Source: Fimicolochytrium jonesii (taxonomy: Eukaryota). Taken from it: DNA of 64,000 nucleotides. The notes beneath the pieces were generated by a model. That model saw only the letters and a list, made by a program, of their open reading frames with translations, did no database searches and had not been told where the DNA came from. Shown piece by piece: positions 6,448-43,800 of the stretch; position 1 is the stretch's first letter, and each line of letters starts with the position of its first letter. The translations under genes were made by a program, and so were the position numbers. The stretch lies in contig NW_026515702.1 of the NCBI RefSeq assembly GCF_025526975.1, positions 248,001 through 312,000 on the forward strand, in the 5' to 3' direction.

Positions 6448-7152
6448 ATACCAGGTGGAACATCAACCCGTTTTCGCCTTTGGTTCCGGTGATTTCACAC
6501 GTCGTGGGTGGCGGAAACCACATGGCACCGTGCCAATCAAGAGCCTTGCCAGACAACTGGCCATCGCCGGCGCAACTGTCTTCATCATGCCTGAAATGGG
6601 CACTACGACACAATGCCATAATTCAATGGCAGGCTACGAGACCCTCGCCGGACAATTTCCAGAAGCCAATATCCATGCCACTAGGGCCCCTCGGCAACCC
6701 TATGCCACGTGCAAACATCGCCCCAAGTACTGGTATCGTCGACACCGGGAGGCTCCTGCCAGGCATGGACTAAGACGATGGTGCAATCGAGAGGCAGATG
6801 AAGCGGAACCGATATTGTTTTCAAGGTGCCCCGAGTCCCGCGACGAGATGGGCGAAAACTGGAGACTTCGAGAGTGCCCAACATGCCAGATACCTCGTGA
6901 TATTCCGCCCATCTTTGACAGAGACATTCAAGCTGCCGCCAACTTTCGGTTCCTGATTCATCTATATTCACGCCACAACGGTCATCGACCTCGATGGAAT
7001 CGTCCAGGCTGGTTAGCTGATGCACAGTTGTGGTGATGTTTTCTAGTCTCCTTAGATAGTTAGCATCACGTATGTAGCTATTCCTTCCCACCCGCGATGG
7101 CACACGGACCTGCGTGCATCGCAAGATATGCGACAATACTTCTTGTATGTTG
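6448..7152 (+). mobile_element. Fanzor family A element, 5'-truncated copy 1, flanked by a TA direct repeat (6446-6447 and 7153-7154)
   Basis: Contains the Fanzor C-terminal ORF plus a 3' non-coding tail shared with copy 2 (28168-28722); similarity between the copies stops at GTTG|TAA. The left junction reads GCTGTA|ATACC. Confidence 0.75.
6455..7036 (+). CDS. Fanzor1 (TnpB-like) nuclease C-terminal fragment: RuvC-II, Zn finger, RuvC-III
   Basis: FAFGSGDF...HGTVPIKSLARQLA...VFIMPEMGTTTQCH (rearranged RuvC-II Glu followed by TT-x-x-C), WRLRECPTC, IFDRDIQAAANF (RuvC-III D-R-D-x-x-A-A-x-N) and a C-terminal RP-x-W, all characteristic of Fanzor1/TnpB. Confidence 0.85.
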   Translation: MEHQPVFAFGSGDFTRRGWRKPHGTVPIKSLARQLAIAGATVFIMPEMGTTTQCHNSMAGYETLAGQFPEANIHATRAPRQPYATCKHRPKYWYRRHREAPARHGLRRWCNREADEAEPILFSRCPESRDEMGENWRLRECPTCQIPRDIPPIFDRDIQAAANFRFLIHLYSRHNGHRPRWNRPGWLADAQLW

Positions 7153-7175
7153 TAAGCGGCCATGACAAAAGCTGG
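7037..7175 (+). ncRNA. Candidate Fanzor omegaRNA scaffold (to about 7154) plus flank-derived guide
   Basis: Non-coding segment conserved in copy 2 up to the element end. Three predicted stems: atagttagcat/atgtagctat, gcgatggcac/gtgcatcgc and acaatac/gtatgttgt. Its position downstream of the ORF at the transposon right end matches known Fanzor/TnpB omegaRNAs. Confidence 0.6.
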
Positions 7176-7734
7176 AATTCCCAACCCGCAGGATTAGTGA
7201 GATTCGTTAAAGCAGGTACTCACGACAAAAGCCGACCCAGCTCATAAGCATTTCTCAAGAGTGATACCCTTAACGTGGGAAGATCCACGGACAGAGAGGA
7301 CATGAAAGCTTACGAGAGTCCTCTTCTTGTACTGGAAGAACAAGCAAGGCGGGTGAGTGTTCCGGTTTGCAAGGCGATTGCAAGATTGGCCGAGACGGTT
7401 TCGGGGAAACGGGGAAACCGGACGCGCTAGGGACTAACTGCATTACGCGGGACGGGAATCAAATGGAGCTAACGCAGCCACTAAGTATGTGCTGACTTGA
7501 CATCGCTCTCTTCCGCATCTCTCACGAAGCAGGGGGAGCGTCAAAGCGCGGAGATTGGTTGTTGGTTGTCGTTCGTTTGACGCCATGCACGCGCTGTCGA
7601 TTTTCCATGTGTTGCAAGAGGAAATTGTCGATTTGCCTTCACGCCAAGCTCTGAAGTCCAAACCCCTGACATTGTTCTTACGTCCCTCAAAATTCAAATT
7701 ACATGCGCGAATAGGATAGAAAAACCAAGTATGA

Positions 7735-10355
7735 TCAAAACTCGCAGTCTAGTTCTGCGGTGCGTAGTGCCGCCGTTGAACCTCTAGCTACAATCGAAGG
7801 TTGCCCAGTCGTTGCAAATGGGCTGGGTTGAGTTTGGTTTCGGGAAGACGCATTCGTTTCCATGACAGTTTCCATCATCCCTGCCGACATTGCGGAGTAA
7901 GAGGAGGCCGCAATCCAGGCAATGCAAACATCGTAGTAAAGGAAACTCCAGAACCCAACCCGGGACCCGAGGCCAAACCCACCGCTAAGCGCGAGTTGAA
8001 GGCCCATAAGAAACCACCTTGTTGGAGCAAACCCCTAACTGTTAGAAGGATATACCACGACAATTTCGGAAAGGATATCCGTACCCAAACACAACGGCGA
8101 TCATCAAGTTCCGCACAGTCTCCGTCAGACCGGATCGCCTCGGTTTTGGTTGAGACGCCTTATTCGCCTCCCTCACGGCGGTCACGATGAATGATTTGGA
8201 AGTGGACTTGGACCCGACTTGCAAATTTCTCCCTTCGCTGAGCGTGGATGTCAGACGATACCCGGAGAAGAGGAATCCGAGCGCATGCGTGAACAGTGAT
8301 ATCGATTGAGATACAACCAATATGCTCCAGAGCTAGCGCAAACAGCGTCGTAAGAATAGATGGACGGACCACGAAGCTTGAGCGCAACGGCTTGAGCGCA
8401 TTACCTTATAGAACAGCGTAAGCAATTCCAGACTGTTCAAAGCGGCTGCTCGCACAATCGCGACAACACATGCGGAGGTGATGACGGGGAACCATATCAT
8501 TGTAATGAAGATGCAATACCTAAGGACCAAAAGTTCTCCGTCATCCAGCTCAAAGGGAGCGCTGTACCGCAAAGCGAGCCTTCTCTCACCGGTAAATTTG
8601 AACCACATTCTTCTCGCGTGGTGTCGAGTCCCCCCGGCTTGATGAGATCTGCCAAGAATGTCAATAAAAGATGCAAGGGAGAAACCCGGCATGCTCGCCT
8701 TCATTTGCTTACGCTAGAAAGCCGCTTACCGTCAACCACTTCAGTAGCATGAGGGATAAGGATTCATAACCGAACATGAATCCGTAACTAAAGAAACGAT
8801 CGCGACTAATGAGCACGACCACGTCGCTGCAAGGACCACGCATCGTCCTGCAACGACCACCGCCGACAGTACTATTTTCCGTACCACATCAAGGAAATAT
8901 GGACGGGCGTCCCATGCGTCGGGTGCTGATAAGAATTCGATCTGAAAGCCAGGGACAAGGCATGAAGAGCTGCCGTCACTGTGGGCAATGAACGATAAGA
9001 CGGGGAAACGAGTAAATGCGCTCTCATACATCAAAACGATATTCCCTTTGAGGTCACCTACAGAGCGTCATTAGGAAAATGCCGATGAGAACTCCCCACT
9101 GTGCGCGGCGGCCCAAAAAAGTGTCAGTATGTGGGTGATAGATGCGGAGAACTGCAGGTTATACCTTCAAATTGAACCGGAATCCCTCATGCCTAGCCGT
9201 CAAGAGAATAATGCTGGAACCTTCGTCCGTCAGAGCTGTGCGGCGCGGTTTTTACGGGCTACAGAGAACGTGGCTCACACAGCTTCCACTAGCAGATAGA
9301 TCAAACTGACAGCTTGCCGGGCAATCATAAAGATATCGAATCCTTTTGATCTCATGGTTTTGCTGTGCTTCTCCTGCGCGTCCTCTAGTGGGATAGTGAT
9401 GAGCTTTCACGGGACTCTGCGGCCGCGTGCCACCCAAGACATGGAAACTCACCGGAGGTGACGTTGATATAAGCGATCATGCTGTGTTCGAAGAAATACA
9501 TCGCATCTTCGATCGAAATGCCCGTCTGGGGAACGAGAGATTGAATCTCCTACCGCAACCAATAGGTCCCCGGTCAAATGTGCTCTCCACAGCTGTCAAC
9601 CATTCGAGCCTCCGCACTACTCCGGGGAACATACTTCCATGTTGTACCCATATAAGGGCGAGGGCGATCCGAAAAGCGGATCTTGACAACACCACGGATC
9701 CACCGGGCCTAGCTGAACCCATAACGCTAGTTTCGGCCTAGTTGCTGTCGTTGAGCAAGGAAGCAAACCGGGTCTGCTAAGCATCTGAATCACATCCATC
9801 CCGTCGGCGCACTCTTCGTGCCACCCATTCGCCTGTGATGAAAATGCATCATTAAAACCTGCTCCTCGCGGGATTCCATCGCTTCTGATGGCATAAACGT
9901 ACGTATGCCAAATACTGGTAGCGAGGACATCCAGCCCCGTAAGCGTCAGCAACGCTGATCAAAGCCAAGTTCGGATTGAGGAGCGTTGTTGGATTCAAAG
10001 CTTCGTACGCCGCGCTGAAATTTGCCAAGCGGCAAACGCCCATCGCGTTAGGGTCATGGAACGTTGCCCTATAGAACCGAAAAAACCATGTGTTGAGACG
10101 ATGCACGCAGCTCATAAAACGATCATCGAAGCAGCGCGCTCGACCAAACCCGACTCGGACGTTTGTTGGGACTCACCGGTTGGGACTGCCCGCTAACGAT
10201 GTGTATTCGGTCCGAAGGAGAGGAAAATCTACATTTCTCAGCGGGCGGACTCCAGTCGGAGGTAGGAAACTTTGATTGAGGAGTGCGTAAACGGTTGCGG
10301 AAACTCTACTTGCAAAGAGGATAACTGGGAGGAGTAGGAGAATATAGACCCTCAT
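7735..10355 (-). CDS. Signal peptide + extracellular domain + multi-TM protein; multi-exon, structure uncertain, possibly degraded
   Basis: Signal peptide MRVYILLLLPVILFASRVSA; a series of same-strand ORF pieces with gtgagt/gtacgt donors; hydrophobic segments at 8741-9034, 8333-8704, 8042-8320 and 7735-8007. Confidence 0.35.
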
Positions 10356-11040
10356 GGCTGTTTTGCTTTCTGTTATCCTGGAACGCAAATTGATGCGTGA
10401 AGGGTCTTGCGCAACGCAGAGCTCCCTGCGCGAACGGTCGTTATTGACCAGTGAGCGACCTACAGCACGCCCAGGAAACGGTAATGCTTCTGTGTGACAA
10501 GTTGCTCTATTGTTCGGACTTGATTAAGCATAACCGTCGCGGATTTTTGCACAGGCATGGGGAGATTTTTGAGACATACCACAGAAAGCAATAGGTTTCC
10601 AGCGCCATGAGTCCGGCGGTATTGTCAGATTGCGGAGTTCGGTCTGCTTAGCTTCCTAGGAAGCGTATTTTCGTGCGCTGTACACTCGGGCGGCTTCGGG
10701 AATCTCAGATTCGACGGAAGCTGTAGTTTGAGGCAATAGCTTTCATATGACTCGTTAGCCCCGTCTGGAACGGCAAATATGGGAGCCCTGTCGCTCTATA
10801 AGAAGCTTCCGCCGGTACTGCCCTGTCGGGTTGCAATGGACTGAGGCTTATTTGCCGCTGTCAGGCGCGCTGTCGATTTTTTGACCACACGCTCACGCTG
10901 CAGCCGAGGGTCTCTTCTGACACAAATGAGAATTTCGGAGCAGTGATCTCCTCAAAAGCAGCTACATACGGACATTCTGAGACACAAATCTGGTAAGAGT
11001 GCTGAAAGCTTGCAATCTAGTGGGCGATGGTATGCGATGG

Positions 11041-11100
11041 TAAGGACAACCTTCTCCTCATCCATTGAACTCATGAACTACGTTCCTCGTCCAGAGCAGA
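11041..11100 (-). repeat. Dispersed remnant homologous to the 3' end of the DIRS-like YR ORF (43801-43860)
   Basis: actacgttcctcgtccagagcaga (11077-11100) is identical to 43837-43860, and similarity continues over about 60 nt. Confidence 0.7.
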
Positions 11101-11298
11101 TTCCAACGGCAGCTGCACACGCTCCTTGCACGCAGCACACAGACGGAAGCATCTCTTTCGCAATTCCGGAAGACCCATCTCCAGTTGTGAACCAAAGTTT
11201 GGCTTCTACATCCAACGTCACATCCAGATCCAAAGGTTCCAATACGTACACCTTACTACGTACGTAGTAGGGTTGGCATTACGGTGGGTTCAGCGGGC

Positions 11299-11370
11299 AA
11301 ATAAACAGCCTTCCGCATCGAGTAATACGCCTTCTGTGCGCGAATAACAAGCCTTCCGCGCGAAATAACT
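11299..11370. repeat. Degenerate ~20-bp tandem repeat (aataacagccttccgcgcga), shared with 21370-21518
   Basis: gccttccgcgcgaaataac occurs at both loci, embedded in 3-6 degenerate copies. Confidence 0.55.
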
Positions 11371-11799
11371 GGGTACCTTCAAACCCAGCCCGACCGCCTT
11401 CAAACCCAGCGTGGACGAGCGGTCTTCCATCTCGCGACGATGCGCAATATGGGCTGCTAAGGCGACCTCTGGCCTTGGCCTGAAGCATCACCGGCTTTCC
11501 ATCGACTCCGAACGACATGCATGCAGCAATTTTCTACCGCACTTCGCAACCTCAGCTGTTCCCCTGATGGTGTCTGCCGCTCCTCCTATTAACCTGCACA
11601 GCAGCGCTGACTCTCCATCACCGTCACCAGTAGTACGCACACAGACTTCTGCACGGGCAAGCGAGGTGGGCGTAAATACATACGTCGCATCCGCATCCAC
11701 ACTACCATATCCGGGCCAGGTCCATCAGGTGCAGAGAATTGAGCTTTGAAGAGTATTGGAAAAGATCGACGTTTTATTGAAACATTATATAGTACATGA

Positions 11800-11976
11800 G
11801 ATCGCAACAAGAAGTGGGAGTAGAATGGGATGTCAAACGGTACGTACAAGAAAGTGGATCGCAACAAGACGTGGGAGTAGAATGGGATGTCAAACGGTAC
11901 GTACAAGAAAGTGGATCGCAACAAGAAGTGGGAGTAGAATGGGATGTCAGACGGTACGTACAAGAAAGTGGATCGC
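11800..11976. repeat. 57-bp tandem repeat, 3 copies
   Basis: Unit gatcgcaacaagaagtgggagtagaatgggatgtcaaacggtacgtacaagaaagtg starts at 11800, 11857 and 11914. Confidence 0.95.
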
Positions 11977-12272
11977 TCTTAGTCGAGAACAACTGGCACC
12001 ACGTGAAGGTGTCGATCCAAGCCAGTCATTCAAGATGGTCAAGCTCCCGTAGGAGGCCACCCGGACTTTCAACCGCTATGGAGCCACGAACGAGAGGATC
12101 GCACAAGCACTGAGAAGCCCCCAGACTCAGTGAAGTGTGTAGGGCAAGCCCCTCTCTCGCCGCGACACCGCCGTCATGACCAACTCACTCGGCCTGGGGC
12201 ACCAAGTGTTTGCTACTTCGATTTCGCTCCACCGGACGAAGTCCATTGCCAACAAGGGTCCCAACCGACGAC

Positions 12273-14695
12273 TCAGATGCGCTCGAGTCGTTTGCCGATG
12301 CGTCTCCAGGCGGGGAATGTCGGTGCCCGTGGTCTTCTTGGTGCTCGTTTCCTTGGGGGTGCCGGTCCATGTTTCTCTCCTGTGGTGTCGTCCTTGTCAG
12401 TGTTGATCGTTGCCGTGTCGTCCGTGTCCTTGGTGTTGATTGTTGCCGTGTCGTCCTTGTCCTTGGTGTTGATCGTTGCCGAGTCGTCCGTGTCCTTGGT
12501 GTTGTTGATCGTTGCCGCGTCGTCCGTGTCCACCGTCACCATTCCTCCAAGTCCGTCCAAGTCGGGAATCCAATCCGGCAATCCCTCGTCGTTCAATCCG
12601 TCGTTGTCGAAGCTGTCGTCCAAGTCTGGAATCCAATCCGGCAATCCCTCGTCGTCCAATCCGTCGTTGTCGAAGTCGTCCAAATCCGCTTCCAACTCCC
12701 TCATCCTCCTCGTCATGCTTACCAACTCTTCGTCATCCTCTGAAACTCCAAGCGTCCTCTTCTTGTCGATCCTCGAGTACAGCACCATCGCCTCCTCCTC
12801 CTTTGGCAACTCCAGCGTTGGACGTTGCATCAGCCACCACTCCATGTCGATGTTCTCCACAAGTCCCCGTGTCCACAGCTTCAAAACTTGGTCCGTGCGA
12901 TTCGTCTCCCTTGGAATGTTCCGTTGTTGCTGGTCCTCAAGTTCGAAGTCCTCCAGTCCTGCCGTCAGCTTTACCGTCGTCACAAATCCAAAGCAAGCCG
13001 ACCCCTCCACCTCCTCCCTCGAATACCCCGTCGCAATCCGCATCAACTTGTCGTCCGCTCCCATGTACCCGCTTACCAAAGGGCATGAGACGAAGAACAC
13101 CGTAGCAGCTAGGAGGGACGGCCGGAATCGAAGCGAATCTTCCATGATGACGCAGGTAGCTAGAAGGCGGTTGGCGGTGTCCACGTTGGCGAGTCGTCGA
13201 AAGGTTGGCGTGATCCCAGTCCATGTAGCGAAGTTGATGATGTCGGCGTCCCGGATGTCGGATTTGACTTGGTTGGCGATGTGGAAAGCGTGGTTGAGAA
13301 ATTCCTGAGGGCTTGTTTGGTATCCGTTGCAGTCCATGAGTATTTGCTGGTCCACGATGTGTCGTTTGACTTCCTTGAGTAGCACTTGGAGCTCGGTGTT
13401 GGACAGCGCAATCCCGGTACGAAAGGTCTCGACCCGCTTGATGAATTGTTGGAGGGAGGGATCCACTTCTGATTCCATGCTGAAGGCGACGGCGAACAGT
13501 GCGATGGCGATAGTCTTCTCCGAGTAGATCGTGTGTTGCCCAGGAGTCGGTGTCATTGCCCTGAAATACAAATCGAGGTAAGTGACGGCAAGGTGATAGA
13601 CCAATTCAGGAGACAAATAGCACAGGGAAAACCCGGCGCTAAGGTCGTTGATTAGTGCTATCATCTTCGATCGGTTATCCTGCGTGAGTGCTCCATTTGT
13701 CCGGGAAGTCCATGTACGGTTGGCGTTTCGAATTTGGCGGTCCTCTCGTTCTACAATGGTCGTAAAGTGTCGCTTGAGATCTTCCAGTGTCCAGAGAAGG
13801 GCCTTGCTTCCAGTGTCGTCTTCAGGTTTCCGGGGTTGGGCGTTAAGGATGGCGTCCAGATCGAGAGTTTCTTCAAGGTCGTCCATGGTCGGGATCTAAT
13901 ATAGTAGAGGACGAGAAGGTATAGGATGAGTAAGCCAGTGTCCTACTATAGGTAGTAAGCGAGTATAGTGTGCATAGCGAGTGCCAGTAAGCGAGCACAA
14001 GGTCAACGACGACCGCCTATGGCAGTTATCCAGGGATGTGGCCTAGGCGATTGCGACGAATCTTGATATCGAGGGGAACGCGAGACGACCGCCTAAGGCA
14101 GTCGGGGGCACTTGGTGTTGATGACGCGTATTGACGAACGCCGACGCGTCTTGAGATCGATGTATGAGGACGACCGCCTATGGCAGTGTCGAGGAACCTT
14201 GATGTCGATGAAGCGCGGATCGAGACAACCGCCTAGGGCAGTGCAGGACACTTGGTGTTGATGACGCGCAAGAGACGAGCGCCGACGAATCTTGATATCG
14301 AAGGGAACGCGAGACGACCGCCTATGGCAGTGTCGAGGAACCTTGATGTCGATGAAGCGCGAACCGAATGAAGCACGAGACGACCGCCTAAGGCAGTGTC
14401 GGGAATCCTGGTATCGATGAAGCTGCGAGATCAGATCCGATGATCTTACCTTGGGAGCAAGTGTCGCGGGCTGGCGTTCAAGCTGGTCTTGGAGGATAGC
14501 GTCGTCGAGGAGATCGGCCCAGGGTTCTAAAAGGGAAGAAGTTTGGGGGGTAGTAGCATACGACATCATTTCGAGAGAGTTATTTTTTTGTGATTTATTA
14601 GTTTTACGAATGTTTTTTGGGTTTTGTACGCTTTCGTCTTTCTCTTCGCTTCTGAGGGCTTGGAGCAGAGCTTGTTGATCTCTTTCGCTTGTCAT
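12273..14695 (-). CDS. Divergent cyclin-fold protein with an acidic repetitive C-terminus; exon 1 14450-14695, exon 2 12273-13895
   Basis: NRSKMIALINDLSAGFSL...ELVYHLAVTYLDLYF aligns with the cyclin box MRAIL..W...ETLYLAVNYLDRF. TSPQEFL, LRFRPSLLAATVFF and TGYSREEV match Cyclin_C. The phase-0 intron AAG|gtaag...ttag|ATC joins the upstream exon in frame. Confidence 0.7.
12370..12680 (-). repeat. Coding tandem repeats (DTDDTATINTK-type ~33 bp x4-5; FDNDGLxDEGLPDWIPDLD x2)
   Basis: Visible in both the DNA and the translation of ORF 12273..13886. Confidence 0.9.
14025..14425. repeat. Degenerate tandem repeat array inside the cyclin-gene intron
   Basis: The motif gacgaccgccta(t/a/g)ggcag recurs about 6 times, with reiterated intervening blocks (ttgatgtcgatgaagcgcg, cgacgaatcttgatatcga). 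Confidence 0.85.
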
Positions 14696-15039
14696 GGCTA
14701 GGAGTCGATGCGTTGTTCGGGCCAGTTAGCTTTCGCTTGAGTTCTCGTTCGCTTGTTACGGCTTGGAGGGGGAGCCAATGCAACAGTGTACAATTGGCAA
14801 GGAAAAACCGAGCGGGGGCATGCGGGACGCCGGCTCCTTAAATATTCGCGGCCGGGGGGGTGCGCAAACGGCCGGAAAAGTGGGCAGAGCCGGGCCATTC
14901 CATAGGTTTCCGAACTCCGAACGGCAACAAATGATTAAGGTGGGCATTAAAAAATCCCAGCGCAATGCCGCCGTTAATCAAGCGGACATTGAGCGAAGCT
15001 GCCAGTTCCCGAGCAGAGACGCCGCGGTGATCAAGCGGA

Positions 15040-15360
15040 GTTTCAGAAGCTTTCTGGATGGCCCGTCTAGGGACTGCGTGCAAGGCTGCTGGATTGCGCA
15101 ATCGCGCCCATCTTGACCTCAACCATACAAACGTCAGAGAACGTGGTAGAATGATTGATGGCCGGCTCTTCGAGCGCGTGCAAAAACAAAGCGATGGAAG
15201 CTTTCTGGATGGCCCGTCCAGGGCTGCGTAAGCTGCGAAGTCGCGGCTGTCGCGCGGACTTTGCCTTGGGAACGCGCTTCGTAAGCACCCTCGCAATCGC
15301 GTCCATCTTGACCTCAACCATGCAAACGTCAGAGGACGGGGCAGAATGATTGATGGCCGC
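15040..15360. repeat. Duplicated blocks upstream of the cyclin-like gene
   Basis: gaagctttctggatggcccgtc at ~15047 and ~15197; gcaatcgcg-ccatcttgacctcaaccat-caaacgtcagag...agaatgattgatggcc at ~15098 and ~15294. Confidence 0.85.
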
Positions 15361-18300: not shown

Positions 18301-18888
18301 AACTTCGGTGTCCCGATTTCAACGTCCTCCCGAGGAAGTCTCAAACGAGGAAGGGATGGCGCCAACGACATGCTTCTTGTCGCCATTGCCCATCCTTACC
18401 GTGATTGTTCCTCGCTGCTACGACCCCGTCAGTGCACGCCAAACCTTTCTCGGTATAGCAAAGGAATGCTCATTAGTTGGGGTGGGCGATGGACAGAGCA
18501 GTCTGAGGTCTTTGACTCACTTGACCCTAGGGTACGGTCACTACTGCCCGCTTTGAGCTCCAGGAACATCATGGAAGCGCAGTTCTAAGGCCTGGGCAGG
18601 AAGTTTAATGCGAAGAGTGACAGCGCGCCGTCGATCCTTCCGCAGTTCCACACAGGTCCGGCCCCTGTCATTGTGCTGAAAGCACTCGCAGCACATAAAC
18701 AGCACATCGCAGGGCCCTGCAGGAGGTCGCCTCTTCACTTCCACAGGGAGGCAGCAAGGATGGCCAGGTACAGTTGCATTCGTACAATAGTCAGCAGACA
18801 TCCCCCGCATCATCTCCTCGGCCCAACAAACAGGTGTACTACACACATTTCATAAAGGATATCATACCTGATTCCGAATTTCGACCGC

Positions 18889-21289
18889 ATGTCGCTGCAC
18901 GCACAAGAGGCTGGTCTGCCCCATGTTGCAACCGCCGGCGAAAGGGTATGTTTGTCGCTCGGTCGTCCATATATTCACATACGCTGCATCAACATCTTAC
19001 ACATTCTCACCAAATGTACTCTCGTTCAATACTAGGCCGCATCAATCATCCTCCTCCCAATCACAGTCTTTGGGTTACTGGCGAATAGCTTTGTCGCCTA
19101 TCTGTTCTGGAGATATGAGACGCTACGCAGGCATCCCTCCAATTTGCTCATTCTGGGGCTTTGTGTTGGGGTAAGAGGAATAGGGTATGGTGATATCGTT
19201 GGAGGGGGGTGTGTGGGAGGTTAAATGGGGATTAGCTAGTCTCGAGCAACTTGGCGAGCAGTTCCACCAGCGGCGGCAAGAACCAATTGCGGCAAGCGAA
19301 GCGAAGCGCAGAGGTCCATGAGACCGTCCGAGCAACGCGAGGATATGCAAATTCCGAGAAACAAGAGCCCAGCATTGTCCATGAAGGCGAGAGCTCCGTG
19401 GTCGAGCAGGAGCAGCTCCAACGAGTGTCAGCGATCCTAGTTGCTGCGAGCGACGGGAGGCGCACGGATGCTCCTACCCTTCCTTCCCTCTATCTTTTCC
19501 GGCCGCCGAACGTTTGTCGCGAGCAGCGAAGGGGGATGGTGTCTGCGTTCACTCAGCCCAACATCTTTCCGCCGAACGGCACCTCGCGAGCGTCAGCCGC
19601 CCGTCTGCCGCGAGATGACTTCGGCAAGCAGAGTCCATCTGCCGCCAGCGAAGCAAGGCGCCGGAATGCTCAAGCCGATGGCATTGAGCGACAGACGTAG
19701 GGATGCGCTTGCCGATATCTATCGCATCCTTGGCGCGAGTGGAGCGACCAAGATGTCGTCTGCATCCATCATCCATCACACCTTTCATTCTACATCCATC
19801 TCACATCACCCTTCGCATCCCACAGGACGGCATCCTCATGTGCCTACCTCGAGTAATAGAAGCGCCCATCGCACTGGTCTACGACGGGTATCCCGCGTGG
19901 TATCACCCGTTCTGCCAACTATTCGGAGCGATGCCGCTGACGTCCGCTTACATCAGCGTGTTCACGTTGGGTGTTGTGAGCATGGAGCGGTATTTGGCGA
20001 TTGTTAGGGGGGTTGTGTGGACTAGGAGGGAAGCTTGTCTTGTTGCTGCTGGTAGGTGTGCGAGGAGATGAGGTGGGGCATCATATTCGTGTACGGGAAT
20101 TCCGCTCACTCGTTGGTTCACACAGGAATCTGGGCAGCAGCAGCGGTAATCGGAGTTCTACTCCCAGTTGTGACCGCGTTCGGTAAAGGTACCCCGCACT
20201 CGCCGTACCTGCTGCAGGCATCCGGGCTGTACTGTCTGATCAACTGGGGGGATAGCTCCATTGCTGTACGCATGTCTCTTTTGTCAGCGATGTGGGACGA
20301 GATGCGATGTTGATCCTTGATGGGTAGGGCCGAATTCAAGTCGTCATCGCGATGGTTGGCCTTCTTTTGGTCATCGGAACACTGGTCGGAGGGTACTTTA
20401 TGATCTGGCTGCATGTTCGGACGGTATGCAGTCTCCCGGATTCCTCCATTTCCTTAATTTTCAGGCCAGTAATGTATGCCCCGCTCGCCCTTACTATAGA
20501 TCGCAAGCACGGTAAGCGCCACCCCGCGCAACATTACTCTCACACCTTCGACCGCAACAACTTCCAGCGTCGCCGAGACGCCGCAGGCGCGCGGGATGGG
20601 TGCGACCATGACGAAGATGGAGAGGGATTTGATGTGGAAGGCGGTGAGCTTATCTTCTTCAGTTCCCTTCCCATCGGAATGATGCATGTGTGCTTTCTAA
20701 CATTTGCTTGTAACTTGCTTTGTAGATCGTAATGTCCGCGATTTTCCTAACAAACTGGCTTCCATACTCCATCATGATCGCATACGAAGGGTTCACACTC
20801 ACGCACGATATCAATAAGACGTTCGAGACGGTGTCTTATTTCGGAGTCGAGATCAATGGTACGCCTGCCTAACCCTAACCTTTCGAAACACAACTCGCCT
20901 GGAGGGACCACACATCACACTCCGTCACTCACCTCCAGATTTGTTTTATGTCTGTAGCGGCAACGAACCCCCTCCTCTTCATCCTCCTCGACACCCGCGT
21001 CCTCCTCTGCGCGCGACAGGCGTTAGGGCTCGCCCGTCCCGACGAAGATCTGAGCTCACAGCCGAGCAGTGCAGTAGGGAGTCACCGGAAGGAGAGCATT
21101 ATAGCTGAGCCTAGTGGGGTGCGACAGGGGAAGTGTCTGCAAGAAGCCGGGCCGAGTGGATTGAGGGGAGGGAGGACAAGAGAGGGCGGTACGCTGGGAA
21201 GGGGGGTGGAGGTGGGGGTCAGGGGATTGAGGGTTAGAAGTATGTCGGCGGAGGAGATGGATGAGGATGATGGATTGGGGGAGGCGTAA
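18889..21289 (+). CDS. Opsin-like class A (rhodopsin family) GPCR, 8 exons
   Basis: Exons 18889-18945, 19036-19170, 19826-20051, 20126-20265, 20328-20423, 20500-20643, 20726-20858 and 20958-21289 splice in frame. Motifs: GLLAN (TM1), LRRHPSNLLILGLCVGD (TM2), CQ...SMERY (TM3), GIW (TM4), SGLYC (ECL2), NWLPY (TM6), NPLLF (TM7). Confidence 0.88.
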
Positions 21290-21369
21290 ATATTCCCTTT
21301 TTGCCCACGAAAGCTCAGTCATTTTGGAACGACGGCGATCCCAGTCTTAGACCCGTCACACAGCTCTGT

Positions 21370-21518
21370 GCCGCGCAAAATAGCTTACAGTAAGGGTTAC
21401 ATGGCGAGTAACAACCCTCCGCACCAAATAACGGCCTTCCGCGCGAAATAACACCCTTCCACGCGAAATAACTTTCACTTAGGGTTACATGCGCGAGTAA
21501 AAGCCAATAACAGCCTTC
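21370..21518. repeat. Degenerate ~20-bp tandem repeat, possibly a transposon subterminal repeat
   Basis: Copies of (c)cttccgcgcgaaataac and two copies of agggttacatg...gagtaa; related to 11299-11370. Confidence 0.55.
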
Positions 21519-23769
21519 ATGTCCAACCTTCCTGACTCCCCTCCGCTAGCTGCACTTCGTCCCATTTCCCGTCGAACGAAAGAGCTCTACCAACCTACTG
21601 ACGACGATTCTGAAGATTTCATGTCCAACAATGTGTATCTCAACCCCGTTCCTGCGCAGAGCTCGTCCGCCGGCGCACGCGGGCAAATCCCCGTCGCGGT
21701 GTCAGCAAGTTCGGTGGATTGGGTGGCCTGTTCGGCTCGCTCACTGGAGCCAATCTTCAGGCTCAGTCCTTGAGAATTTCTGCCGGAGCGACTCCAAACC
21801 CTGGTGGCAGACGTCTGCCCTTTGCCACTGGCACTGATACCCGCAGCGCGATGGACGACTTTAAACCTGAAGGCCGCTTCGTTCCCACTGCACTCCGCTT
21901 TGGTCGTCGGACGCGCTCGCTCTCCCCGCTCCAGTCCCGCCGCGAGGACCGTCAGCCTGCGCCTGCTCGCCATGAAAGTCATTGCGGTGAGACGCCCAAC
22001 GATCGCCGAACTGCTCGTGTGCTCGAAACTGCTGCCGCAGCTGAGCGCAACTTTGGACCCTCAATGCCGGTCAGCACTGCCACCTTACCGCTCGAGTAAA
22101 TGTCATGGTGCTTATAAGAGCATACTCCCAAGGAGAACAGCTTCAACGCCCCATTGAATCTTGCTTGCATGCCACATCTATCATCGTGCAACGTAAGACG
22201 CGCTGTCATACGTTTGGCATATCAGAACTCCCAACTCCCATGAACATCACAAACATCGCCATGTGAACACGTGGAATAAAGGATCTAGTTGCCAGAGTGC
22301 GGCGGAATGAATGGATGGCAGCGCCCTTACGGAAAGGAATGACATGTCCCCCAGATGATTATGCCGCGTGCGCTGCGAGTTGGGTACACTAGAACCTACG
22401 CGAACCTGATGTGATTTAGTCAACTGGATTGGAGCGGAGATCGTCGAAGCATCGCATAGCAAAGTCTTTGACCGAGGCCTTCGCGGAGTTGTATAGCATA
22501 TATCGTGACTGGGGACCTCACCGCTTTGCATTGATATTGCTGTCTGAATATTGTCAACTCACTGTGCGGCCTCAGATTATCAGCATGTCAATCAATTTGT
22601 AATTCTTTCTTTAGATCTTTGAAAAAGAGAAGAGATGGTGCACAACAAGTGCCGTGGCCATCACGAGCCACCGGGTAGAGCCCTTCCTGTGCCGCCAGTC
22701 GAGCGGCAGAGGTCTGCGGACTTTCCCTGCCCACTATCCGAGAAGAAAAGAAAGATAACCTTCGGGCTCCTCCCGGAAACGAGAGAAAATATGTCGTGGA
22801 GCCATGTCGCAATATGATCACGTCCATAATCTATTTTCCAGTCATAGTCGAGCTACCCTTAAGCATAAGGGTGAAGCAAATATAAGAAGTACTGTACGGG
22901 GCCTGGCAGACTTGTTTGTGTTTGGCGTGTTTGGCACCTGCCATTCTCATACATCCTATACTGTCATTGATATCCGATACAAAAAATACGAGCCAGCCCT
23001 GCACGTCTCTTACTGGAGTGGCCGCCATTGATATCATTGCCAAACAGCAAACATGCAAGCAACAGCCAGCACCGAGAGGGCAGTACGGGCTTCGCCCCTC
23101 TACCGCCCAAGTTATGAAAGCCTCGCCGCAACCAAAGCCGCAAGGACCATACTGGGCGCAAATCTCCAATCAGTGGGGATCTGAAAGCTTGCGAACCTAC
23201 AACGCGCTGTCGAATACTGTTACATATCGGCGGACGGGAGGAATAACTACCCTGGCACTGGCGAGTCAAGCCCGGACAAAGTTTTCCAAACGATTATTAC
23301 TCAACTGTAGAAGCATCCGGGGTGAACTGCTAGTATGGAGACCCAATCTCATTGGGAAAACTGTGCGCTTCAACGAGTTCCCTGTAGACCAAAGGGGAAC
23401 GCTTGCAGAAGTTAATACACTCGGCACTTCTTGAGACATGCGTTTACACTCCTTAACACTCGGAAAGGATGTCTACGCATGCAAATTACAGGGGTCGATT
23501 TTTGCCCTCCGGCCATCTCACCGCTGCCCTTAAAAGAAGCTTGGGATAGTCGCCCTAGCCCGCATCTGACCTTGGCATCAAAGGTACGGAAGTTGCTACA
23601 CAGATTGTGAATATTTTGACATGCATTTGACATTTGCTACATACGAAATAAACGTGCTTCCCATCTTTAAATGACAGTACAAATACAGACGTATGAGCTT
23701 TTCTATCTACTCTCTACAGGTCTAGGATCTCTTCTCAACGGTCGCTGCAGGGCTGTGGAGATCACAGAC

Positions 23770-24270
23770 TCAGAAGGCGAGCTCGTTGTGGTCCAAAACT
23801 CCGTCGTGGTTGCGGTCGAGGAAGTCGAACATCATCGGCAACGACTTGCGCATCTCGCCCGACTCGTCCCCCTGTGAGGACAAACACCTGGCTGTCAGGC
23901 ACATTGTCCTTTCCTCCTATACGCTCATGCACATACATAGGTTACCTTTTCCGACAGAACCTTGGTACGCTCGGCTATGAACGTTTCCTTGTTCAGCGGC
24001 TTTCCGGCCATCAAGCCCGCCTGGTTTTTGCGTTGCGCCTGTTGGGTGGCAGAGTTGAACAACATTGCAGCTAAAGTCCGAAGCCTCGCACGCCAAACAG
24101 CGGCCAACATACCTCCTTGTATTCGTCCTAAATATTAAATATCGATGAAACGAACGCCCAGTCAAAACAAGGCTCTACCAGTCCAAAAAGAAGACGAAAA
24201 TGGCCAACTTACGTCCAAGGGAACAGGGTTCTCACCGTCCGTCTTAGGCAACCTCCAGCAGTTGTAGCAC
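23770..24270 (-). CDS. Small EF-hand protein (5' end uncertain) with a 15-nt microexon
   Basis: Splicing gives ...TDGENPVPLD|DEYKE|AQRKNQAGLMAGKPLNKETFIAERTKVLSEK|GDESGEMRKSLPMMFDFLDRNHDGVLDHNELAF*. DRNHDGVLDHNE is a canonical EF-hand loop. Confidence 0.6.
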
Positions 24271-24704
24271 GCTGAGTAAAAAGTTGGTGTCCCCCCCCCA
24301 ACTTCCACTTCTGACCAGACCATCTGGCCAAACCCTCCGCCGGTACACTCCTCGTGTGAAATGTACCGAATATCCGGTACCGAGCTTCTGGCCACCCCTG
24401 GCCAGACAATGATTGAGAAAGTGCCCGACACCAAACGTCCTGGCTGACTCGCATGTGGATGAAACACTCCACGGCGGCAAATGAACCAGATTCTTCTGAC
24501 CAGGCCATCTGGCCCAGGCGAACTTAGAGCCTACCGCGGGCGGACCCCCCCGCAGCCTTCACCCTCGGCCTTGTGCTAGGTTCAGCGCCGTTTCAATAGT
24601 AGTTCCTTTGCCCGCGGCCCTGGGCATCTTTCGGTATGTCCATCCATCTGCCTTCTGGAACCGGGAGAGGTGTCATGGATGTAGATTGAGCGGCGAATGC
24701 GGCG

Positions 24705-24774
24705 CGAGGAGGAGGTGCTTAGTGCGGTGGGTAGTGAGGTGGGATACTAAGCAACCTCCTCCTCGTCTAGAGCA
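24705..24774. repeat. Inverted repeat whose right arm matches the DIRS-like YR terminus
   Basis: cgaggaggaggtgcttagt (24705-24723) pairs with actaagcaacctcctcctcg (24746-24765). The latter is identical to 43800-43819. Confidence 0.7.
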
Positions 24775-24870
24775 CATAGTACGGTACCATCCGGTATGAG
24801 CCGCGGCTTCGGCGCTATCTATGCCTGGATCTTCGTAGCCATGGCAAATACCTCATCGATGGTCGATACG

Positions 24871-24940
24871 AAGTTGGATATTCAATACCTACCGACGAAG
24901 GAGATGATCGCCGATATTCAGACGAAGGCGCTCTCAAGCC
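24871..24940 (+). mobile_element. Ty1/Copia RNase H C-terminal remnant
   Basis: KLDIQYLPTKEMIADIQTKAL matches the Copia RNase H terminal motif (Y-x-P-T-x-x-M-x-A-D-x-x-T-K-x-L). Confidence 0.7.
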
Positions 24941-26170
24941 CGCTTGTATCCACCTACGGTCTCATCCCCCTGAAAACGAAAATCCGTTTGTTTGCCGTGC
25001 ACCCCACATCCTTTACACGTGTGTAAAAAACGTGGAGAGGAGAGCTGTCGATGGATTCAGGCTCTATCTACGTATGAACGCCAGGACGAAAAAGCGCCCA
25101 TCTGAAGAAGATGACGACAAAGAAGACGGCTTGGATCTGACCGTATATAGAAAGGTCGTCTATACAGCGTTGTCTATATGTGAAAAGGTCACTTTCCCTG
25201 TCCCGGCTAGCCCGGCGGCCATGAAGCTTTCGAAAAGCGTCAACCCGCAAGATATTGGGCAACGGTCTCTCTGGGTTGTGGGGCACCGGTCTTTTCTACT
25301 CTATGGCCATACAGTGTATAACCTAACCTTAACCCGCACAACTATAGGAGCTCGCGTCTCTCGCACAACACATCCCGGCATCTTCCATCTCCGCACCTTC
25401 CACGCAAAAGTGGTATGTATTCCCCTTCCGTTGGCAAGACTCGCAAAACGAAACCGGGCATTTCTCGCACTTCGCATCCACCATATCCCCTAACCCATCG
25501 CCGCATATGCACACCGGAAACTGCAGATCTGCGGCCTCCATGTCCTTCATCATCTGAGCATATCGTTGCTTCCTGTATGAATAATGAGTAATGATACAAT
25601 AGACGCATTATTTTACCCGGGCTCTTACCTGTGTGAGGTCGTGAAAGCGGACGGACTACAATCAAGGTCGAGGGGAGGAATCCAGCGGACAAGACCGGGG
25701 GTGGCACTGGCAGGTATTATTGTCCGGCTGATCTCCACCGATTCGTGTGTTGCATATTTCATGTACAGGAGGCTGCCCAATCCTCCGATCCAGGGCCGCT
25801 TGCGGGATCCAGCAGAGCTGAGTATCTCGCTCCTCAATGCATCACCGATTTTTGTCGCGTTTCCAACAAAGTCATGCTGTACGGCAATGTGCAAGACGGC
25901 GCGTAGCTGCAGTAGAGTCATGGTCTGGCAGAATAGGGTTGTTGTGCTCCTTCCACGAAAGAGAACACGGCTCGCGGCTTTGGCGGATAGTCGCCGAGTT
26001 GTCCTTCCCTGCAAATCCATTGCGATCCCGCTCGCGACAAGTGCTTTTCCGAAACGATAAGATCCGGGTGCCCGTGTTGAACATACTCTGGGCGCTGATG
26101 GGCAAATGGCGCACCGCACCGTATTGCTGTCATTGCTTCATCGACGCAGAGGAAGGAACCTCTTTGATGA

Positions 26171-27534
26171 GGCCTTGTCTTCTCTACTTCGCTTCCGCCC
26201 CAGTCGTCGAGATCATAACAGCGCACCGCTAATAGATGCGCTCAGTCATACAGCCCAGTCAAAAAACGACAGAAAAACATCAAGACGCTGGCGCTACCAC
26301 CACCACCTTTCCAACTCCTGGTCTCGCATCTGACCGTCGCCAATGGCGGAGGACGGTCCATTCCGGTACTGGATCACCCGGCCAGTCAGACGGCTGAAGA
26401 ACTTCATCAGGCCACTGGATGGCGAAAACGAGGCGAACGTAGTTCCTGCCGTCGAGGCTGTTTTCCGCGCAAGGTCAACATTCATCACTGATACCGTCTT
26501 CAGTGCCTGGCATCTCCTCGCTATCTACCTCAGAAGCGAGGCCGACAATTGGTTATCCACCCCCAATGATGATCCCCTTGTTCCTCCGACAGGAGACGCT
26601 GCCGGGAATCACAGGATGCGGAAAGGACTGCATCAGATGATGCAGGACACCTTGAGAATCATTGCCACGGATGGTGACCGGGGCAGTGTTGATCCGGTAC
26701 TCCTGGAAACCTATACTACCAAACTCCAGCCAACCATGATGACCGGCTACCATTCCGACGAACAAGATGACCTCCCCAACAAACCTCCAAACAACGCGCA
26801 GTACCTCTTTACTCGGAAGATTCTTCGCACCGCAGCCAACACTCCCGCCGGGGAAGGGTGGACGGATTATCGGTCGCACTTCAAGCTTATTGCCAGGACA
26901 CTGCAAGCGAACTTCAAGGAACACATAGCCAAGAATCTCAGCGACATCATGGCACAGATTCTCTCAGCTCAAGTCTAATCTGTTGACGGAATCCATGGGG
27001 CGGATGCAGAGGAAGTTGGTACGTTGAGCCTTGCATGCCACGCATTCCACGTTTCCGGTTAGGTTCTGGCCACATCAACTCACAAATGTTTCTCCTCCAT
27101 GCAACAGTGAAACGGCTGCTGCGGTGGCTTGACCCAAGACTAGTCACCAGTCATGGTCGTTGGAACCTCTTTGAACAACAACAACAGGCCAGTGGACTGG
27201 GGGACGAGTTCCTGTTCGGCGGGCTGGATATCACCGACCAACAGCAGGACCACCTTACCACGATCGCATTGCAACATCGTCGAATTCTCGTCAATGCAAT
27301 GGGACCCTTCACTATCCCGGGGTGGTGGCAGGATGAAGACTCGGTCTGTTCGTATAAGGATCCAATCACAACATACCAATGAGCCAGAGTCCTTCAGCGA
27401 CTCCCTGGAACCGGTGTCGCGGGCCAGCAGAGCGATGAGAGGCGAATCATCCTGCGCATGACATACTACATGCAGTATCTTTCCAGAGAGGCCCGGAGGC
27501 TTGAATCGGAACTGGTCCGAAGAGAGGGGTGATG
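26171..27534 (+). pseudogene. Fanzor family A N-terminal (REC-lobe-like) fragment with one intron and nonsense codons
   Basis: 26171-26220 matches 28124-28171, which is fused to the Fanzor C-terminus in copy 2. The ORF starts at ATG 26343 (MAEDGPFRYWITRPVRRLKNFIRP...), has an intron at about 27018-27108 (G|gtacgt...cag|TG), and carries in-frame stops at 26976, 27380 and 27530. Confidence 0.65.
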
Positions 27535-29189
27535 TTATGGACGACGCGCCCATACCATAAGCTTACCTACTGACAGCCGCCAATGTCAACCGCCAAATGT
27601 CAAACGCCAATGTCAATGTCAATGTCAGTGTCAATGTCAGTGTCAATGTCAATGTCAATGCCACTCTCCCTCTCTCCTCTCATTTTGCCAATCCTCCAGC
27701 AATATCGCCACTCCTCCTCTCTCCTCTCATTTCACCGATCCCCCCTCGGCTTCTCCACACCCCCCACTACTTCCCCATAGCCAGCAGCTGTAGCAATGCT
27801 CTCTACGCTCGCCACGCACGCTCTAGGAGCATAGCTGGCGCCCGCCCAGTCTTCTCCACACCCCCCACTACTTCCCCATAGCCAGCAGCTGTAGCAATGC
27901 TCTCTACGCTCGCCACGCACGCTCTAGGAGCATAGCTGGCGCCCCCCCAGTCCCCTCTTGTTGTTGTTGTTCTCTGATCTGCTGGGTTGCCTATCTATAA
28001 ATAGCCGGCCTCTCTTCGTCCATTCCCTTCCTCCCCAGCAGATCAACACCAGTTCTTCTCATCTCCTGTTCTAGTCCTTGTTTCTTGTTTCGCCAATACA
28101 ATCTCTTGTCGCCTATCACTCTCGCCTTGTCTTCTCTACTTCGCTTCTGCCTCAGTCGTCGAGATCATAACACAATGCCATAATTCAATGGCAGGCTACA
28201 AGACCCTTGCCAGACAATTTCCAGAAGCCAATATCCACGACACTAGGGCCCCTCGGCAACCCTATGCCATGTGCAAACATCCCCCCAAGTACTGGTATCA
28301 TCGACACCGGGAGGCTCCTGCCAGGCATGGACCAAGACAATGGTGCGATCAAGAGGCAAATGAAGCGGAACCGATATTGTTTTCAAGGTGCCCTGAGTCC
28401 CGCAACGAGATGGGCGAAAACTGGAGACTTCGAGAGTGCCCGACATGCCAGATACCTCCTGATATTCCGCCCATCTTTGACAGAGACATTCAAGCTGCCG
28501 CCAACTTTCGGTTCCTGATTCATCAATATTCACGCCACAATGGTCATCGACCTTGATGGAATTGTCCGGGCTGGTTAGCTGATGCACAGTTGTGGTGAAG
28601 TTTTCTAGTCTCCAAGTCTCCTTAGATAGTTAGCATCACATATTTAGCTATTCCTTCCCACCCGCGATGGCACACGGGCCTGCGTGCATCGCAAGATATG
28701 CGACAATACTTCTTGTATGTTGTAAAAAGTTGGACGACATGCTCGTCAGCCAAAAGCTCATTTGTAAAAACCTAGAAATCTGGTCTTGGGACCTACCTCC
28801 GCCCTCGTCGTCCAGACTGTTGGGGAATGTATCCTTCACACAAAGGAAGCAAGAAAGCCAAGAGTACTTATCGTAATTGCCCTGTGCGTCTTGTCTCCTT
28901 GCAGCGTAGCAAAAGGCGCCACAGGCAACCATGTCGATTACACAGCTGGCGCTAAAACACGAAGACGGGGTAATTTGAGAAAGTACAAAACGAGATATCG
29001 CAATCAAATTACTCACAGTGTCCAACCATTACACCAGTCGACCTCACGCTGTGCCAGGCCAACTGAGCCGACGCAAGCGATGGACTTTTCGCCAACGGGA
29101 GCCGCAAGGTCGTGCGGAGCTGCAAGGGCGGTCGAAGCGAAGGCACTCAAAAGCGCCACGGCTGAGACAGTAGAAGACGCGAACTTCAT
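27535..29189 (-). CDS. Small secreted Cys-rich protein, 3 exons; intron 2 carries Fanzor copy 2
   Basis: Exon 1 29017-29189 (signal peptide MKFASSTVSAVALLSAFASTALA); exon 2 28797-28951 (ASCVIDMVACGAFC...SCFLC); inferred exon 3 27535-27566 (GKLMVWARRP*). Exon 3 is inference. Confidence 0.55.
27591..27660. repeat. (TGTCAA/TGTCAG)n hexamer microsatellite near the element left end
   Basis: Direct reading of the sequence. Confidence 0.9.
27750..27951. repeat. 101-bp tandem duplication
   Basis: cttctccacacccccc...catagctggcgccc starts at 27750 and again at 27851. Confidence 0.95.
27975..28045 (+). promoter_or_regulatory. Putative Fanzor promoter: TATA box within a 12-bp inverted repeat
   Basis: TATAAATA at 27996-28003 lies between tgatctgctggg (27975-27986) and cccagcagatca (28034-28045), followed by a pyrimidine-rich leader. 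Confidence 0.5.
28599..28745 (+). ncRNA. Candidate omegaRNA scaffold plus guide, copy 2
   Basis: Near-identical to 7037-7155 (one 7-nt local duplication) and divergent immediately after TGTAA. Confidence 0.55.
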
Positions 29190-43761: not shown

Positions 43762-43800
43762 GGTTATTTATTCACTCGAGGAGAAAAATAGAGAAGCTTA

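What the first reader, a model, noticed from the sequence alone, without database searches (positions are those of the whole stretch)
6448..28725. A Fanzor family reconstructable from three pieces, with a directly delimited candidate omegaRNA and two different guides
Seen: 6455-7036 encodes RuvC-II/Zn/RuvC-III motifs (PEMGTTTQC, CPTC, DRDIQAAAN). 28168-28725 is a second copy. 26171-27534 shares the 5'UTR with copy 2 and encodes a plausible N-terminal lobe. The two 3' tails stay nearly identical for ~120 nt past the stop, fold into three stems and diverge exactly after GTTGTAA, giving flank-derived spacers (gcggccatgacaaaagctgg versus aaagttggacgacatgctcg). Established: TnpB/Fanzor omegaRNAs are transcribed from the transposon right end with the flank as guide. 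Inference: this is a divergent Fanzor1 family with a long insert between the zinc-binding cysteines, and an intact copy may exist elsewhere in the genome.
Basis: partly seen in the sequence, partly recalled or inferred. Interest (0 to 1): 0.88.

Follow-up and report, generated by a model that had tools for sequence, protein, structure and literature searches.

The report
Broken relics of divergent chytrid Fanzor
These are dead, partial copies of a jumping gene that likely encoded an unusually divergent RNA-guided DNA-cutting enzyme (Fanzor) in a fungus, probably a chytrid; their shared ends likely mark its guide RNA and target motif, but the pieces do not add up to a whole enzyme.

Summary
The two 3' copies, their shared 119-nt tail and their divergence after GTTGTAA are real. 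The peptide's closest relatives are unannotated chytrid proteins. Its motifs align in order with Fanzor1 (z about 4-7), but no PDB, Pfam or fold match confirms this, so Fanzor1 is likely, not proven.

Three points are corrected. (1) The 'shared 5'UTR' is the end of a 640-bp LTR-like repeat (TGTTATG...CATAACA, purine tract upstream) that cuts copy 2. (2) The family cannot be rebuilt from three pieces: about 460 residues, including the RuvC-I Asp, are absent, and the N-terminal ORF is only suggestively the REC lobe. (3) Only two of three stems are robust, and the tail is not more conserved than the decaying ORF.

New: copy 1 is 5'-truncated and bracketed by a TGTAA direct repeat, which predicts a TAM ending in TGTAA. 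The family has longer RuvC and zinc regions than reference Fanzor1s. The scan noted an LTR-split Fanzor1 relic in another genome; no sequence look-alike was found.

The parts
6444..6448 (+). TGTAA, left copy of a 5-bp direct repeat bracketing copy 1; likely the target core and the 3' part of the TAM
   Evidence: Longest match to the element end within 6400-6470; 0.7% of 20-nt and 1.6% of 40-nt stretches of the window hold TGTAA; it sits 7-19 nt before protein homology starts at 6455-6467
6449..7036 (+). Copy 1: 5'-truncated Fanzor1-like C-terminal coding remnant (195 codons); RuvC-II Glu codon at 6593, RuvC-III Asp codon at 6923
   Evidence: 13 homologues at E<=0.001; Glu invariant in 15 of 15 rows; collinear with Fanzor1 blocks
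7037..7155 (+). Copy 1 right-end tail, likely omegaRNA scaffold; stems 7094-7122 and 7129-7154 robust, stem 7055-7082 context-dependent; ends in TGTAA (7151-7155)
7156..7175 (+). Flank of copy 1; predicted guide 1, matching the empty site
   Evidence: Divergence point between copies; the only exact 14-nt match in the window is itself
7172..7223 (-). Predicted 52-nt GT-AG intron of an unidentified host gene; copy 1 appears to sit in the following exon
   Evidence: GTGAGT...CTAAT...CAG; the joined empty site gives an open hydrophobic frame; inference
26172..26220 (+).
   Evidence: 96% identical to 28124-28172, ends CATAACA
26221..27532 (+). Decayed ORF of about 420 codons (stops at 26331, 26976, 27380); likely the Fanzor REC/N-lobe, unproven
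   Evidence: Best codon score of six frames for both parts; block test z 0.8-5.2; no significant pairwise, HMM or local-profile hit
27019..27062 (+). Predicted 44-nt GT-AG intron that restores the frame of the N-terminal ORF (a 1-bp frameshift would fit too)
   Evidence: sequence; frames; inference
27519..27529 (+). Purine tract (PPT-like), 3 nt before the LTR-like repeat
27533..28172 (+). 640-bp LTR-like repeat with TGTTATG...CATAACA termini, TATA box at 27996, internal 101-bp and 6-bp tandem repeats; flanking 5-mers differ, so not a simple solo LTR
28173..28598 (+). Copy 2 coding remnant, starting after the RuvC-II Glu, with a nonsense codon at 28554
28599..28725 (+). Copy 2 right-end tail, likely omegaRNA scaffold, ending in TGTAA
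28726..28745 (+). Flank of copy 2; predicted guide 2
   Evidence: the only exact 14-nt match in the window is itself

Best explanation
The window holds two decayed 3' pieces of one DNA-transposon family that likely encoded a divergent Fanzor1 RNA-guided nuclease, plus an LTR-flanked ORF that is probably its N-terminal lobe; no working nuclease is encoded here. Shown: two copies with a common right end, near-neutral CpG-type decay, a TGTAA repeat on both sides of copy 1, an LTR-like repeat joined to copy 2, and a missing middle of about 460 residues. Inferred mechanism: the parent element had no terminal inverted repeat and inserted at TGTAA through a transposase supplied in trans, most likely Crypton-like or rolling-circle. 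Its right end was transcribed into an omegaRNA whose scaffold includes the TGTAA, with the next ~15-20 flanking bases as guide. The nuclease would cut empty alleles (TGTAA followed by the guide match) so that repair restores the element. Copy 1 is a 5'-truncated insertion into a host exon. Locus 2 most likely took LTR-retrotransposon insertions, followed by deletions that removed the left end and the middle. Either tail could still serve as a guide if an intact copy exists elsewhere (untested).
For: Homologues: 13 at E<=0.001, 7 of them named chytrid hypothetical proteins, best 47% identity. Homologues P0008 and P0016 carry TDG, D-x-G, E and RD in Fanzor order. Reference set of viral proteins tied to SpuFz1, PpFz1 and GtFz1 structures (E 2.6e-33 for L008; profile E 1e-49 or better). 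Against it, the family aligns in register at RuvC-II (hhalign E 0.002). The copy-1 block chain beats 200 of 200 and 500 of 500 shuffles and 53 of 53 decoys. Weak PF07282 hits in 3 of 13 homologues. Decay: 16 of 22 coding differences are CpG transitions; dN/dS about 0.048/0.063. TGTAA repeat and empty-site frame. The terminal stem pairs through the TA of TGTAA; PMC13565253 section 6.2 states that the 3' TSD is in the scaffold and the 5' TSD in the TAM. Ty3 insertions in or beside 11 of 42 SpuFz1 loci are reported in PMC10432273.
Against: No direct PDB hit for the copy-1 peptide, P0002, P0008, P0016 or the family profiles. No Pfam hit for window pieces, and only one irrelevant NCBIfam hit among 17 rows. 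hhalign probability is only 14%. The Fanzor1 HMM gives E 0.009 for copy 1 and nothing for P0016. The reference set was picked with a motif covering the Glu-Cys block, so that block is partly circular. The N-ORF is no better than shuffles in local alignment (150-155 of 300) and has no BLASTP match to P0016. The tail fold is not unusually stable and is no more conserved than the ORF. The TGTAA repeat is one observation, and a weak match to P0011 extends across it to 6428.
Confidence: 0.7

Rival explanations
1. The C-terminal pieces are Fanzor relics, but 26221-27532 is the internal region of an unrelated non-autonomous LTR element that inserted once into copy 2.
For: The layout LTR end - ORF - purine tract - LTR is that of a retroelement, and the ORF stops at the purine tract. 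It needs fewer events. The N-ORF has no significant pairwise, HMM or local-profile match to Fanzors.
Against: No TGG primer-binding site after the 5' LTR end, and only a 6-nt self-priming match. No gag or pol Pfam hit. Block test positive in 5 of 5 settings (z 2.0, 5.2, 2.8, 0.8, 2.0), at or above P0016's own N-terminus (z 0.3-1.8) in 4 of 5. Order and orientation fit N-lobe then C-terminus.
Confidence: 0.25
2. An LTR retroelement captured the Fanzor N-lobe between its LTRs and moved it as cargo.
For: The ORF lies exactly between an LTR end and a purine tract plus LTR and scores suggestively as REC.
Against: Single instance; no primer-binding site; predicted intron retained; the C-terminal piece lies outside the LTRs next door, which in-place disruption explains. 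[quoted passage not shown]
Confidence: 0.08
3. The repeat is another mobile or zinc-binding gene family and the Fanzor-like motifs are coincidental, so the tail is only a transposon end.
For: No curated family, PDB or fold match; the canonical CxxC after the Glu is missing.
Against: TDG, DxG, GxG, E-x6-C and RD occur in order in P0008 and P0016; the shuffle and decoy tests; a short conserved tail with a terminal hairpin next to a sharp end.
Confidence: 0.1
4. The TGTAA before copy 1 is chance; the element has a TA or TAA duplication (Mariner-like, as SpuFz1) and copy 1 lost its 5' part by ordinary deletion.
For: Only one left junction is available; chance level 0.7-1.6% before allowing for post hoc choice; weak P0011 similarity continues to 6428.
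Against: No inverted copy of the right end in the window; the joined flanks give a splice-compatible open frame with a hydrophobic 19-mer in the top 0.8% per frame.
Confidence: 0.25

Closest known systems
Fanzor1 of Spizellomyces punctatus (SpuFz1, Spu-1 and ghost elements; PMC10432273; PDB 8GKH)
   Same: Likely chytrid host; partial copies; short conserved tail after the stop codon followed by a variable flank; LTR retrotransposon insertions in the loci; same order of RuvC motifs.
   Different: No phmmer or profile match to SpuFz1; no inverted repeat found in the window; tail 119 nt against a 75-nt scaffold; PExGT/SExGT instead of DE[FY]xTS at RuvC-II; no CxxC after the Glu; longer inserts.
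Giant-virus Fanzor1 proteins from IMG/VR loci L002-L066 (tied to 8GKH, 9CF0, 9CER)
   Same: Collinear GxG/W, E-x6-C and RD-x5-N blocks.
   Different: First Zn Cys to RuvC-III Asp is 103 aa in copy 1 and 106-166 in 4 homologues, against 35-94 in 12 references. RuvC-I Asp to Glu is 271-282 aa in 3 homologues, against 158-192 in the 7 of 12 references where the motif was read correctly.
TIR-less Fanzor1 elements: Chlamydomonas CRe-1/2/3 (Helitron2) and Mucor MCi-2/MCi-5 (PMC3627910)
   Same: 5'-truncated copies with a common 3' end, flanked by direct repeats, without TIRs; MCi-2A carries partial Crypton sequence.
   Different: Their duplications are 6-19 bp or longer; here a 5-bp core equal to the element end; no transposase is linked in this window.
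Crypton DNA transposons (PMC3212892)
   Same: No TIRs; 4-6 bp direct repeats at both termini, one read as target and one as terminus.
   Different: No Crypton recombinase found here; the window's tyrosine recombinase at 43.8-45.9 kb looks DIRS-like and is unlinked.

Membership tests
Fanzor/TnpB superfamily | RuvC-II Glu six residues before the first zinc Cys | tested here: met
   E49-x6-C56 in copy 1; Glu invariant in 15 of 15 rows; in register with Fanzor1. Absent from copy 2.
Fanzor/TnpB superfamily | RuvC-III RD-x5-N motif | tested here: met
   D159 in both copies; RD also in P0003, P0008, P0013, P0015, P0016
Fanzor/TnpB superfamily | RuvC-I Asp (DPG-like) | tested here: inconclusive
   Region absent from the window; present in homologues P0008, P0016, P0018 (DFG) and P0010 (DPG)
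Fanzor/TnpB superfamily | Canonical C4 zinc finger (CxxC after the Glu, second Cys pair before RD) | tested here: not met
   First Cys in 11 of 15 homologue rows, but none of these nor copy 1 has Cys at +3; conserved Cys/His lie in the insert instead. PF07282 is below cut-off in 3 of 13 homologues. The region is remodelled rather than absent.
Fanzor/TnpB superfamily | RuvC/WED/REC fold | tested here: inconclusive
   Models had mean pLDDT 33 and 41; fold searches gave no meaningful match
Fanzor1 clade | Large eukaryotic protein with WED TDG motif, long insert between RuvC-I and RuvC-II, extended REC | tested here: inconclusive
   P0016 (972 aa) has TDG402, D488, E759, D931; block z 4.7 and 2.6. 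No tree was built and no Fanzor2/TnpB reference was compared.
Fanzor1 clade | REC N-lobe encoded by 26221-27532 | tested here: inconclusive
   z 0.8-5.2 over five block settings; not significant
OMEGA systems | Conserved structured right end with a variable flank as guide | tested here: inconclusive
   Sharp boundary and two robust stems, but z only -0.5 to -2.0; two copies allow no covariation test
OMEGA systems | Expressed omegaRNA bound by the protein; TAM-dependent cleavage | not testable with these tools
   Needs RNA data and an assay
LTR retrotransposon LTR (27533-28172) | TG...CA inverted termini, upstream polypurine tract, second copy of the end | tested here: met
LTR retrotransposon LTR (27533-28172) | Primer-binding site, gag/pol, matching target-site duplication | tested here: not met
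   None found; fits a deleted remnant
Crypton transposon | Linked tyrosine recombinase and 4-6 bp terminal direct repeats | tested here: inconclusive
   5-bp repeat at copy 1; no linked recombinase; left end not in the window

The most novel reading that the evidence does not exclude
This is an undescribed Fanzor1 subclade of early-diverging fungi, missed by standard profiles. It has about 1,000 residues and a rebuilt zinc module using insert-borne Cys/His ligands. It rides a TIR-less, Crypton-like element that inserts at TGTAA, so that TAM, target core and scaffold end are one pentamer and 5'-truncated copies seed new guides against host exons.
Probability: 0.3. Interest if true: 0.62.

Novelty: new variant of a known kind. 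Interest (0 to 1): 0.42.

Why it matters
The locus itself is dead. Its value is as a pointer to a Fanzor lineage that Pfam, NCBIfam and PDB sequence searches miss. It gives a delimited candidate scaffold (119 nt), a predicted TAM ending in TGTAA, and a near-complete natural homologue that keeps all three catalytic residues (P0016, Geranomyces variabilis). If confirmed, this widens the structural range of eukaryotic RNA-guided nucleases and offers a case for studying how TIR-less Fanzor elements move. Partial Fanzors, ghost guides and LTR insertions into Fanzor loci are already known, which caps the interest.

Tried and rejected
No whole genome is held, so other copies could not be counted. No sequencing run was listed for 26100-28800; this is no evidence on expression. 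The ESM Atlas gave no result.

Word-indexed protein searches with the copy-1 peptide and the N-ORF found nothing among longer proteins. Locus scans: metagenomes 0 of 85 candidate stretches and 1 of 64 (L001); viral 0 of 8 and no pattern match; prokaryotic genomes 0 of 47. The 23-nt tail pattern is absent from viral contigs. Plasmid and phage tblastn were empty. No Rfam or tRNA hit in the window.

Both structure models were low confidence, and Foldseek and VIA-align listed no Fanzor; this is uninformative. P0009 (repetitive, matches only residues 134-176) was left out of all alignments. One search counted 3 tail differences; the correct count is 4. The unfiltered tblastx list was noise. Five D-E spacings came from a false DLN/DLG match and were dropped (7 of 12 kept).

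A TGTAAAAA match at 25022 was considered as the left end of locus 2 and rejected: it was chosen post hoc and lies among scraps that look copia-like (recalled motif, no Pfam hit). A LINE-made truncation is disfavoured because there is no poly(A) tail at either end. Exact look-up of 7 window ORFs found none, so the host is inferred only from Fanzor homologues and a chitin synthase gene.
Full report
Observation. The sequence claims mostly hold. 6449-7036 is a 195-codon open frame, and 6608-7155 recurs at 28170-28725 (93.9%). The tails differ by 4 substitutions and an 8-nt duplication and part right after GTTGTAA. No third copy of the end is in the window (2 matches, 0.01 expected). The copies are decaying: 16 of 22 coding differences are CpG transitions (12 in copy 2, 4 in copy 1), dN/dS is about 0.048/0.063, and copy 2 has a nonsense codon. 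The tail is no more conserved than the ORF (p=0.63). It folds with z -1.2 and -0.5, or -2.0 for the last 80 nt. Stems 7094-7122 and 7129-7154 persist when flanking sequence is added; stem 1 does not.

What the protein is. An exhaustive phmmer search gave 13 proteins at E<=0.001. A profile search added three Geranomyces proteins, including P0016, 972 aa. One intron-rich, AT-rich metagenomic locus also belongs (L001). With a chitin synthase gene in the window, the host is probably a chytrid; this is inferred. Neither the window pieces nor the family members and profiles searched hit the PDB by sequence. Pfam gave only sub-threshold PF07282 hits in 3 of 13 homologues. Two AlphaFold models were poor, and the fold searches run on the better one were uninformative.

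Test against real Fanzor1s. I fetched 65 viral loci with a recalled motif and tied that set to the SpuFz1, PpFz1 and GtFz1 structures. hhalign puts the family in register at RuvC-II (E 0.002, probability 14%). A collinear-block score for copy 1 was 35.8 against 9.1 +/- 3.8, with 0 of 200 shuffles reaching it. With log-odds blocks it was z 4.4, with 0 of 500 shuffles and 0 of 53 real-protein decoys reaching it. P0016 scored z 4.7 (0 of 25) and z 2.6 (2 of 200). The HMM alone was weak (E 0.009 for copy 1, nothing for P0016), and the Glu-Cys block is partly circular. P0008 and P0016 carry TDG, DFG, PERGT and RD in order. I put Fanzor-superfamily identity near 0.9; Fanzor1 rather than Fanzor2 rests on size and motifs, without a tree.

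How it differs. The second Cys of the usual CxxC is missing in copy 1 and in all 11 homologue rows that have the first. A Cys at position 88 is kept in 13 of 15 rows, often followed by His, and a Cys at 112 in 9 of the 10 rows that reach it. A rebuilt or second zinc site is an inference. The RuvC-I to RuvC-II spacing is also longer (271-282 vs 158-192).

Locus 2 and the 'three pieces'. The shared 49 bp end in CATAACA, and its reverse complement begins at 27533. This defines a 640-bp unit with a TATA box and tandem repeats, 3 nt after an 11-nt purine tract. It reads as an LTR, not a Fanzor 5'UTR. It lacks a matching target duplication, a primer-binding site and gag/pol, so it is a remnant. The ORF between the LTR ends is protein-coding by codon score (best of six frames for both parts) but broken. 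As a REC lobe it scored z 2.0, 5.2, 2.8, 0.8 and 2.0, with 4, 0, 0, 14 and 3 of 53 decoys above it; P0016's own N-terminus scored only 0.3-1.8. Pairwise, HMM and local tests were not significant. I give REC about 0.7. Even so, the window matches P0016 only at 716-961, so roughly 460 residues, including the RuvC-I Asp, are missing and the protein cannot be read from these pieces. PMC10432273 section 7 reports Ty3 insertions at 11 of 42 SpuFz1 loci, so this damage has precedent.

Copy 1 and the likely mechanism. Copy 1 begins inside the ORF, directly after TGTAA at 6444-6448, the same pentamer that ends both copies; 0.7-1.6% of 20-40 nt stretches hold it. Joining the flanks at one TGTAA gives, on the minus strand, an open frame with a hydrophobic 19-mer (top 0.8% per frame, six frames tried) just after a canonical 52-nt intron. 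This suggests insertion into a host exon; the gene is unidentified. The terminal stem pairs through the TA of TGTAA. PMC13565253 section 6.2 states that the 5' duplication is part of the TAM, the 3' duplication part of the scaffold, and that CryptonS elements share a pentamer at both ends; bioRxiv 2023.08.09.552727 reports the same scaffold inclusion for insect-virus Fanzor1. I therefore predict a TAM ending in TGTAA and guides starting at 7156 and 28726, aimed at empty alleles. Truncated, TIR-less Fanzor1 copies with direct repeats are known from Chlamydomonas and Mucor (PMC3627910). The transposase is unknown, and a weak similarity to P0011 running across the left TGTAA keeps a chance reading open.

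Novelty. This lineage was not found in print by four searches. The genus names Geranomyces, Fimicolochytrium, Phlyctochytrium, Chytridium and Powellomyces do not occur in the searched supplements of PMC10432273 (9 files; one scanned PDF not searched) or PMC10530073 (2 files). Repbase, subscription papers and bioRxiv supplements were not visible and may list it.

What I saw of each paper: passages plus one section of PMC10432273, PMC10530073, PMC3627910 and PMC13565253; passages only of PMC11423790, PMC10288648, PMC3212892 and the bioRxiv preprint. Labels for DIRS-like, copia-like, Crypton-like and PPT/LTR features are recalled, apart from the Pfam integrase hits.

Verdict. A real but dead set of fragments of a likely divergent Fanzor1 family. 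Interest 0.42.

Noticed in passing
window 62524-62648: About 20 copies of TTAGGG, an interstitial telomere-like array.
   Followed up: no
window 43800-45900 minus; 11047-11100; 24745-24767: Element with weak phage-integrase Pfam hits that looks DIRS-like (label recalled); two short scraps elsewhere match its 3' end.
   Followed up: partly
window 7164-7172 and 7224-7232: A 9-bp direct repeat GACAAAAGC brackets the predicted 52-nt intron and overlaps guide 1; it may be an insertion-born intron or chance.
   Followed up: no
P0002 residues about 105-185 (Fimicolochytrium): The part before the Fanzor-like C-terminus resembles a Crypton recombinase N-terminal domain (recalled; no Pfam or PDB hit).
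   Followed up: partly
window 24800-25330: Scraps resembling Ty1/copia RNase H and RT motifs upstream of locus 2 (recalled; no Pfam hit for 25032-25490).
   Followed up: partly
L001 (1575 bp): AT-rich metagenomic family member with at least two introns inside the RuvC-II/zinc region, so from a different, intron-rich host.
   Followed up: partly
window 48790-50286 and 59120-60660; 53793-56616: Two paralogous Mem_trans (PF03547) genes and a chitin synthase gene.
   Followed up: no
window 11800-11976, 12385-12675, 14054-14423, 15046-15359: Several internal tandem repeats of 33-144 bp in and around the 537-codon ORF with a weak cyclin hit.
   Followed up: no
L028, L045 and related IMG/VR loci: Giant-virus Fanzor1-like ORFs of 812-838 aa, longer than the usual 610-660.
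   Followed up: no
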